Positions 30,961 through 31,703 of a stretch of DNA of 64,000 nt are shown piece after piece (the first letter of the stretch is position 1; each line of letters opens with the position of its first letter). The stretch comes from Eledone cirrhosa (Eukaryota). Below the pieces are notes generated by a model. That model had not been told where the DNA came from. It worked only from the letters and a program-made list of their open reading frames with translations, and did no database searches. Both the position numbers and the translations under genes were made by a program. The DNA is taken from NCBI GenBank assembly GCA_964016885.1, contig OZ024741.1:380556001-380620000 (forward strand), read 5' to 3'.

Positions 30961-30966
<6 letters not shown>

Positions 30967-31703
30967 GACGTAAAATAAGAAAATTTTAAAAATTAACTTA
31001 CTTACTAAAATTTTCACTCCAACTAATTAGTTTCTGTAAGGGAATAAATATAGTTACGTAACGCAACTATAGATAAGTCCTTACGTCATCAGGGAGTCTA
31101 TTCTCAGCTAGGTTCCCAGACAATGCGCGGACACTAGGAACCCATATAAAAATAATAATAATTCAGTAGATGGAACAAAGCTAGCGGGGACTAAATTCCA
31201 GGGCACTGAAAAAATTCACTGCCTACTTGGTCAGTGGCAAATTCTAAAGAATCAATCACGTGACACTGAAGTTAATCAGTGAGGAGTGAGGTGGTATTAT
31301 GACAAGAGCCTAACTACTACTAACCATAGCAGTAAATTTCGGCAAGTTTTGCTCAACAAATAATTTGGAGATAAATATAGAGAATTAGTATATCTACCAA
31401 CATATGTATACATATGTATTATTATTTTTATATGGGTTCCTAGTGTCCGCACATTGCCTGGGAACCTAGCTGAGAATAGAGTCCCTGATGACGTAAGGAC
31501 TTCTCTATAGTTGCGTTACGTAACTATATTTATTCCCTTACAGAAACTAATTAGATGGAGTGAAATTTATAGTAAGTAAGTTAATTTTTAAAATTTTCTT
31601 ATTTTACGTCTTTCATATAATTGTTCTGCATCCCCCTGCATAGAACCACAAAGGTACTAAGACATAACATATATATTTGCTAGCACGGGTATACATCTGT
31701 ATA
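30961..31703. mobile_element. Non-coding HHR element (~530-nt unit) with head-to-head arms 30961-31419 (-) and ~31420-31703 (+)
   Basis: HHR ctcc-CTGATGA-c-gtaagg..ccttac-a-GAAA-ctaattag-TT-ggag at ~31017-31096 (-). A mutated copy lies at 31481-31560 (+). Same family at 63581-64000. Confidence 0.85.

What the first reader, a model, noticed from the sequence alone, without database searches (positions are those of the whole stretch)
30961..31703. ~530-nt HHR unit whose copies close into a circle
Seen: the minus arm (31406->30961, 446 nt) continues in the plus arm (31617-31703, 87 nt). At an independent locus (63581-63700) the end of that 87-nt piece (gtatacatctgtata) joins directly to the start of the 446-nt piece (catatgttggtag). 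The map is therefore circular, ~533 nt, with one HHR (palindromic stem III ACTAATTAGT, long two-part stem II) and no ORF. Inference: permuted insertions from a circular or multimeric RNA, i.e. a second, unrelated retrozyme family.
Basis: partly seen in the sequence, partly recalled or inferred. Interest (0 to 1): 0.82.

Follow-up and report, generated by a model that had tools for sequence, protein, structure and literature searches.

The report
Hammerhead retrozyme-like repeat with Penelope signature
A 533-base non-coding repeat whose end joins its own start in many genomic copies carries a predicted self-cutting hammerhead RNA and was likely pasted into microsatellites by Penelope-like retrotransposons; this kind of element is already known from many animals, and whether this one makes RNA circles is untested.

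Summary
Four arms at two loci map onto one closed 533-nt unit with one type I hammerhead and no ORF above 56 aa. The end-to-start junction is family-wide: 420 and 334 DNA reads cross it in two samples, and so do contigs of a second organism. A 23-bp sense-strand hairpin spans the junction (z -5.2 sense, +0.6 antisense) and shows three two-sided pair changes in a diverged subfamily. Both loci are head-to-head inversions with 3-nt overlaps. All three visible 3' ends fall 63-175 nt after the predicted cut, on TA- or CT-type words. A truncated copy of an ORF-bearing Hydra-type Penelope-like family next door shows the same signature. Best reading: a non-autonomous, Penelope-mobilised hammerhead element (non-LTR retrozyme type). 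A closed DNA map cannot tell an RNA circle from a tandem transcript. No arm holds two ribozymes, cleavage and circles are untested, and a coding parent elsewhere is not excluded. New member of a known kind.

The parts
30958..31419 (-). Locus 1 arm A = unit 521..533,1..449; crosses the end-to-start junction; its 3' end shares ATATA with the (TA)n tract
31016..31097 (-). Type I hammerhead that fits the descriptor: 5-bp stem I, CUGAUGA, unpaired C and A flanking a 6-bp + internal loop + 9-bp stem II, GAAA, palindromic stem III, predicted cut after GUU at 31021; stem I can extend over about 31111-31001
31417..31703 (+). Locus 1 arm B (inverted) = unit 247..533; its 3' end stops on TATA inside the junction hairpin
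31480..31561 (+). Second ribozyme copy, damaged at 31481 (stem I) and 31555 (U16.1); family reads carry the ribozyme-compatible letters at both places
31417..31419 (.). Inversion junction, 3-nt overlap shared by both arms
30912..30962 (.). (TA)n target tract, shared with the 3' end of a Penelope-like arm on its left
63576..63750 (-). Locus 2 arm = unit 394..533,1..28; its 3' end runs into (CT)n/(TA)n
63586..63635 (-). 23-bp hairpin (5 G.U pairs, 4-nt loop; unit 502-524 paired with 529-533,1-18) spanning the end-to-start junction
   Evidence: subfamily changes read table 7
63748..64000 (+). Locus 2 second arm = unit 159..414, cut by the window end; 3-nt overlap with the minus arm; ribozyme at 63896-63977 with one stem I mismatch
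28919..30918 (.). Context: truncated copy of the Hydra-type Penelope-like family with the same inverted-arm, 3-nt-overlap, (TA)n-end signature
31704..32060 (+). Context: a different multicopy repeat with its own minimal hammerhead (core at 31918); the right-hand flank, not part of the unit

Best explanation
This is a multicopy, non-coding 533-nt repeat whose copies run end-to-start, carrying a predicted type I hammerhead, and it is likely a non-autonomous passenger (non-LTR retrozyme type) that a Penelope-like reverse transcriptase/endonuclease copies into microsatellites from a tandem or circular RNA. Shown: the closed map, lack of an ORF, family-wide junction, inverted arms with 3-nt overlaps, and 3' ends on TA/CT words 63, 147 and 175 nt after the predicted cut. 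Inferred: tandem copies are transcribed; the ribozyme (probably as a dimer through its palindromic stem III) would cut out 533-nt monomers that may be ligated; the helper enzyme cuts a microsatellite and primes cDNA from both DNA ends on AU-alternating words around the junction hairpin; the two truncated cDNAs join head-to-head through microhomology. Three of four arms read through the predicted cut site, so the template was uncut multimer or re-ligated circle, not a cut linear monomer. I put about even odds on circles existing in vivo.
For: Closed map from four arms. Junction reads among the joints listed (8 further joints not shown): X9 318 colinear + 102 with small indels, X10 218 + 116; contigs in X1 and in organism B (X4). 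A further 476 and 377 reads continue past 31685 with a diverged but homologous junction. At most 98 X9 reads cover 31711 against 1184 at 31686, so the native right flank is not the usual continuation. Structure: circular monomer MFE -139.6, z -7.0 sense against -2.1 antisense (60 shuffles); junction hairpin -28.2, 0 of 200 shuffles as good, opposite strand -12.7, 139 of 200. In the diverged subfamily 8 of 9 inner pairs are kept, 3 by two-sided changes (read by eye, table 7). Family letters restore the ribozyme: 31481 C in 850 of 874 X9 reads and 598 of 611 X10 reads; 31555 T in 32 of 35 and 26 of 28. 31508 and 31526 change at the same depth in X4, compatible with a U-A to C-G swap in stem II. 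The neighbouring ORF-bearing family has a CxCX5C linker as described for Hydra PLEs, which insert in (TA)n (PMC8557442 section 11), and its truncated copy shows the same 3-nt-overlap inversion. A purified PLE protein cleaves and extends both DNA strands, starts inside the RNA, and does not need hammerhead cleavage (PMC11167929).
Against: No arm exceeds one unit and none holds two ribozymes, so tandem dimers are inferred, not seen. The unit has no sequence likeness to the non-coding parts of four other hammerhead-bearing elements in the window (scores reached by 70-148 of 200 shuffles), so the helper is unidentified. The 246->247 adjacency is shown only by the window's two loci: an AATT site at 31160-31163 lies on it, and 285 X9 reads have heterogeneous loose ends before 31417 (agreement 0.4), which leaves room for a different upstream sequence in some subfamilies. 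The core is atypical (C opposite A where G10.1-C11.1 is usual; GUU cut triplet) and may be slow or dead; 8 of 9 tested Xenopus retrozymes did not cleave in vitro (10.64898/2026.07.22.740005). In vitro PLE initiation was not homologous to the cut DNA (PMC11167929), unlike the microhomology seen here.
Confidence: 0.75

Rival explanations
1. The unit is a duplicated segment inside the pseudo-LTR or 3' UTR of a coding Penelope-like element elsewhere in the genome, and the copies seen are 5'-truncated, inverted ends of that element rather than an independent non-coding family.
For: Truncated and inverted pseudo-LTR fragments are the commonest PLE remains (PMC8557442 and PMC4209133). The pseudo-LTR of the neighbouring family has an internal ~135-nt duplication. 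Loose ends before 31417 are heterogeneous, and contig depth dips at unit 71-114 and 181-246. 525 loose ends were not displayed.
Against: The whole circle closes within the window without any ORF. The large displayed loose ends at 31241, 31280-31281, 31335 and 31685 are, by eye, diverged versions of the unit itself rather than foreign sequence.
Confidence: 0.16
2. A DNA-level minisatellite born from an old pseudo-LTR spreads by unequal crossing-over or DNA rolling circles; the ribozyme is a relic and RNA plays no part.
For: Local tandem amplification from a PLE terminus is proposed in 10.64898/2026.07.22.740005. Two of three window ribozyme copies carry damaging changes. Palindrome repair in DNA can also give two-sided changes (own knowledge).
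Against: Both loci are dispersed, truncated, inverted and microsatellite-anchored, like retrotransposed copies. The hairpin has 5 G.U pairs and works on one strand only. Most family reads keep the ribozyme-compatible letters.
Confidence: 0.05
3. A viroid-like circular RNA that replicates RNA-to-RNA is occasionally written into the genome.
For: Highly paired 533-nt circle (63% paired, z -7.0); heterogeneous family, with most laid reads under 95% alike.
Against: Only one strand has a ribozyme and the antisense fold is weak (z -2.1). The fold is branched. The family is abundant in DNA of several samples and present in a second organism, as expected of an inherited repeat.
Confidence: 0.04

Closest known systems
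Metazoan non-LTR retrozymes (Cervera & de la Pena 2020, PMC7229834: passages plus sections 14 and 17 read; Li, Clavereau & Pollet 2026, 10.64898/2026.07.22.740005: parts 1-3 of 5 read, supplements not seen)
   Same: Non-coding head-to-tail unit, one type I hammerhead per unit, GC under 45%, highly self-paired, co-occurring with PLEs that are the proposed helpers.
   Different: 533 nt is above the 170-400 nt given for invertebrates, though inside the 51-972 bp range of Li et al. The window copies are sub-unit, inverted arms rather than dimers or arrays. The ribozyme has a long two-part stem II, a C.A (or double-bulge) closing and a GUU triplet. Circular RNA and cleavage are not shown.
Penelope-like elements and their putatively non-autonomous derivatives (Craig et al. 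2021, PMC8557442: passages and section 11; Cervera & de la Pena 2014, PMC4209133: parts 1-2 of 4)
   Same: 5' truncation, partial tandem or permuted map, inverted 5'-truncated arm, microsatellite targets, hammerhead with palindromic helix III and an extra base at the start of helix II, 3' ends a short way past the ribozyme.
   Different: No RT or GIY-YIG ORF in the unit, and no detectable homology to the pseudo-LTRs of the PLEs in this window.
Poseidon element of Anolis in vitro (Frangieh et al. 2024, PMC11167929: parts 1-2 of 4)
   Same: Both target strands are extended, initiation is internal at a stem-loop downstream of the ribozyme, and the template is uncut; this would account for head-to-head arms.
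   Different: That element is autonomous and its initiation is not homologous to the target, whereas here all three 3' ends share 4-5 letters with a TA or CT word.

Membership tests
Non-LTR retrozyme | Type I hammerhead in the repeat unit | tested here: met
   Descriptor hit at 31092(-); 12 window hits against 0-1 per shuffle; constrained fold -28.5 against MFE -29.7 kcal/mol for the fragment. Atypical 10.1/11.1 position; no Rfam hammerhead match.
Non-LTR retrozyme | Non-coding unit, low GC, a few hundred bases | tested here: met
   533 nt, 35% GC, longest frame 56 aa; no tRNA in the window.
Non-LTR retrozyme | Head-to-tail junction of the unit | tested here: met
   Two window arms; 420 and 334 reads in X9 and X10; contigs in X1 and X4.
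Non-LTR retrozyme | At least two consecutive units, each with a complete hammerhead | tested here: inconclusive
   0 of 4 window arms reach one full unit (one is cut by the window end); 150-nt reads and short contigs cannot span 533 nt.
Non-LTR retrozyme | Self-cleavage and accumulation of monomeric circular RNA | not testable with these tools
Autonomous Penelope-like element | RT plus GIY-YIG ORF between the pseudo-LTRs | tested here: not met
   The circle closes without an ORF in the window copies. Other genomic copies could not be surveyed.
Penelope-type integration signature | Inverted 5'-truncated arm, microsatellite target, 3' end shortly after the hammerhead | tested here: met
   2 of 2 loci inverted with 3-nt overlap; 3 of 3 visible 3' ends at +63, +147 and +175; the coding Hydra-type family ends at +29, +106 and +118.
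Penelope-type integration signature | Sequence homology to the pseudo-LTR of an identified autonomous partner | tested here: inconclusive
   No likeness above shuffles to four hammerhead-bearing elements of the window; only 64 kb could be searched.
Plant LTR retrozyme | Type III hammerhead in direct LTRs around an internal region | tested here: not met
   Type I topology and no LTR-internal-LTR layout; definition from 10.64898/2026.07.22.740005.

The most novel reading that the evidence does not exclude
The unit is a circular-RNA retrozyme whose covarying 23-bp junction hairpin is the cis signal that a Penelope-like reverse transcriptase binds in trans, setting initiation on the AU-alternating words around it. 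The head-to-head arms would then be direct genomic footprints of two-ended priming on a circle, and its C.A-closed, GUU-cutting hammerhead an active variant.
Probability: 0.22. Interest if true: 0.55.

Novelty: new member of a known kind. Interest (0 to 1): 0.3.

Why it matters
That Penelope-like elements mobilise animal retrozymes is proposed from co-occurrence and pseudo-LTR phylogeny (PMC7229834; 10.64898/2026.07.22.740005) but is not shown mechanistically in the parts I read. Here an ORF-less hammerhead unit and a coding Penelope-like family side by side leave the same insertion footprint. The unit also has a conserved hairpin at the place where its 3' ends cluster, which offers a concrete RNA signal to test in the existing in vitro PLE assay. 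Beyond that, it is one more family of a kind known from many animals.

Tried and rejected
No whole genome is held, so no copy survey could be made. No RNA holder was listed among 11 runs; this is no evidence on expression. The 'many molecules begin or end' places (31197, 31338, 31383, 31552, 31592, 31619) all coincide with AATT words, and 31726 with CATG. They are most likely restriction ends of the RAD libraries (enzyme identity recalled), so I rejected them as element ends and did not read RAD depth as copy number. Pattern scans: two-box ribozyme pattern, 0 matches in metagenome contigs and 0 in viral contigs; 20-mer pattern, 1 match (L001), which is a chance 22-nt match inside a 1213-aa bacterial ORF. 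Pfam found nothing for 4 of 4 PLE protein pieces; their assignment rests on motifs, the Atlas and homologues. The host was not identified: the Atlas taxa are too thin, and my impression of an octopus-like genome is recalled, not tested. Single-RNA twin priming (L1 model, recalled) fits locus 1, where arm A starts 13 nt from where arm B ends, but not locus 2 (gap about 130 nt), the PLE copy or the 472-nt array, so I did not adopt it over two separate primings. An alternative 7-bp pairing that blocks the ribozyme in the predicted circle is not kept in diverged subfamilies (by eye) and was dropped. The matching stretch of the 472-nt family does not fold better than shuffles (z -0.1), so a shared hairpin signal is unsupported. 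Earlier-findings look-ups by place, by sequence and by long word list were empty. Literature searches for octopus or cephalopod with retrozyme or hammerhead and Penelope returned only PMC8557442 (wider searches). Subscription papers and the bioRxiv supplements were not visible and may list this family.

Full report
Setting. The window is AT-rich (GC 28-45% per 2 kb) and full of microsatellites and LINE remains, which suggests an animal genome (inference). No whole genome is held and the host was not identified.

Observation. Taking unit U as 31406->30961 followed by 31617->31703 (533 nt, 35% GC), four arms align to head-to-tail U. At locus 1 the minus arm covers unit 521..533,1..449 and the plus arm 247..533. 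At locus 2 the minus arm covers 394..533,1..28 and the plus arm 159..414, where the window ends. Every step of the circle is contiguous in at least one arm, and the end-to-start junction is crossed at both loci. The longest frame in doubled U is 56 aa.

Is the junction a family property? I laid 4 of the 11 listed runs on 31161-31800, which holds the unit once (85% likeness). Among the joints displayed (8 more were not shown), those whose coordinates put unit 533 next to unit 1 without a gap hold 318 reads in X9 and 218 in X10. Joints with small indels add 102 and 116. X9 and X10 are separate samples from a different study than X1. Contigs in X1 and in a second organism (X4) show the same joint. 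Another 476 and 377 reads leave the reference after 31685 with a diverged version of the same junction. By contrast, only 98 X9 reads cover 31711, against 1184 at 31686, so the right flank is a separate repeat; it has its own minimal hammerhead at 31918. The family is heterogeneous: 6558 of 7231 laid X9 reads, flank reads included, are under 95% alike. Read ends pile up on AATT words and say nothing about element ends. One such word sits on the 246->247 step, which is therefore shown only by the window's own arms.

Ribozyme. The motif is type I: a 5-bp stem I, CUGAUGA, stem II of 6 bp plus an internal loop plus 9 bp, GAAA, a palindromic stem III, and a predicted cut after GUU at unit 386. A strict descriptor found 12 sites in the window against 0 or 1 in each of 20 shuffles. 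The constrained fold lies 1.2 kcal/mol above the fragment's MFE and extends stem I across an internal loop; stem III forms a 10-bp self-duplex (-9.0 kcal/mol), as expected of dimer-active metazoan hammerheads (PMC4209133). Only the minus-arm copy fits the descriptor. Family reads carry the ribozyme-compatible letter at 31481 (850 of 874 and 598 of 611 reads) and at 31555 (32 of 35 and 26 of 28). The position before GAAA is unusual: C faces A, where G10.1-C11.1 is the rule. U.U there is reported (PMC3088659, passage) and is seen in three other families of this window. GUU is a weaker triplet (recalled). Activity is untested.

Structure. The 533-nt monomer folded as a circle gives z -7.0 in sense and -2.1 in antisense (60 shuffles each). 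The most telling element is a 23-bp hairpin, 5 pairs of it G.U, whose arms lie on either side of the junction: -28.2 kcal/mol, with 0 of 200 shuffles as good, against -12.7 and 139 of 200 on the other strand. Read by eye against the consensus of the diverged subfamily (table 7, agreement 0.86-0.87), 8 of the 9 inner pairs are kept: three by changes on both sides (unit 521-532, 520-533, 518-2), one by a one-sided change, four unchanged; one is broken. This suggests the junction is an RNA structure under selection rather than an accident of one insertion. A consensus may mix subfamilies, and DNA palindrome repair can mimic compensation.

Insertion footprint. Both loci are head-to-head inversions whose arms overlap by 3 nt. 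The three visible 3' ends lie 63, 147 and 175 nt after the predicted cut and end on ATATA into (TA)n, on TATA, and on TCTCT into (CT)n/(TA)n; 14 of the 19 TATA/ATAT words of the circle lie in that arc. A coding Penelope-like family in the window (47750-51544, frameshifted, with a truncated copy at 28919-30918 directly beside locus 1) has RT and GIY-YIG homologues at 38-57% identity (120 listed of 670; Atlas) and the CxCX5C linker described for the (TA)n-targeting Hydra clade (PMC8557442 section 11). Its 3' ends fall 29, 106 and 118 nt after its own hammerhead, and its truncated copy is an inversion with a 3-nt overlap. A coding element therefore leaves the same kind of permuted, inverted map, and a closed DNA map does not by itself show an RNA circle. 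The unit has no likeness above shuffles to that family's 3' region or to three other hammerhead-bearing elements, and only a marginal AT-rich match to the 472-nt family, so the helper is not named.

Mechanism. Most likely, tandem copies are transcribed and a PLE protein acting in trans cuts a microsatellite. It primes cDNA from both DNA ends on AU-alternating words near the junction hairpin, and the truncated products join through microhomology. Extension of both strands, internal initiation and independence from ribozyme cleavage are reported for a purified PLE (PMC11167929). Three of four arms read through the predicted cut, so the template was uncut multimer or re-ligated circle; these cannot be told apart here. 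The closed map, junction, fold and footprint are shown. Transcription, cleavage, circularisation, the helper and the role of the hairpin are inferred.

Comparison and verdict. The element works like a metazoan non-LTR retrozyme (PMC7229834), a class argued to be non-autonomous PLE derivatives (10.64898/2026.07.22.740005). It meets the tests I could run: type I hammerhead, non-coding, head-to-tail junction. Two consecutive complete units were not seen, and circular RNA could not be tested. A coding parent that carries the unit in duplicate at its end remains possible (about 0.16). My six answered literature searches showed no paper on this family in titles or the passages read; supplements and subscription papers were not visible. 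Two earlier AI notes on other genomes describe comparable elements; I did not check them and do not count them as support. Verdict: a real feature and a new member of a known kind, interest 0.3. What lifts it slightly above ordinary is the side-by-side footprint and the covarying junction hairpin, which can be tested directly.

Noticed in passing
window 25121-27392: 472-nt hammerhead tandem family: about 2.6 units on the minus strand and 2.2 on the plus strand, head-to-head at 26371, in (TA)n; minimal hammerhead with U.U closing. It has consecutive ribozymes and fits the retrozyme definition better than the 533-nt unit.
   Followed up: partly
window 47676-51544: Near-complete Hydra-type Penelope-like element (frameshift near 49030-49130), ~549-nt pseudo-LTRs with an internal ~135-nt duplication, hammerhead core variant CAGAAGA, and a 60-nt inverted piece from beyond the pseudo-LTR at its 5' end.
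   Followed up: partly
window 31704-32060: Separate multicopy repeat with a minimal hammerhead (core at 31918, palindromic stem III) ending near a TA tract; present in reads of both organisms laid.
   Followed up: partly
window 46441-46683: 243-nt inverted pair of short arms beside (TA)n, each with a CUUGAGA-core hammerhead variant (46526 minus, 46591 plus).
   Followed up: no
window 46891-47633: Element with a 147-nt inverted arm and a long-stem-II hammerhead at 47257.
   Followed up: no
window 61301-62891: Second Penelope-like remnant (62111-62710 minus: GIY-YIG with a CX4CX2C linker, Neptune/Nematis-type by the description in PMC8557442), an inverted 84% arm, and a hammerhead-like core at 61618 minus seen by eye.
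   Followed up: no
window 7621 (-), 8685 (-), 51651 (-), 2902 (+), 58465 (-): Further hammerhead-like motifs; 7621 has a 10-bp stem II flanked by unpaired A on both sides. 2902 and 58465 are doubtful. The window holds at least six unrelated hammerhead families.
   Followed up: no
window 32253-32355 and 59892-60010: Long near-perfect hairpin repeat between TA tracts, starting with a CUGACGA word but lacking the GAAA box after the hairpin; nature unexplained.
   Followed up: no
window 41380-44472, 53946-55676, 1-1305: LINE ORFs (endonuclease + RT, Atlas; RTE-like by recall); 41380-44472 is open for 1030 aa, and 42786-44979 is 98.7% identical to the inverted copy at 53438-55632, so probably recent.
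   Followed up: partly
window 29229-29409: A ~185-nt dispersed repeat (also near 22950, 34512 and 45011) interrupts the pseudo-LTR of the truncated Penelope-like copy.
   Followed up: no
window 31401-31416: At the locus 1 inversion the family's imperfect palindrome has become a perfect 16-nt palindrome through one change at 31413 (family reads carry the other letter), perhaps a template switch during joining.
   Followed up: partly
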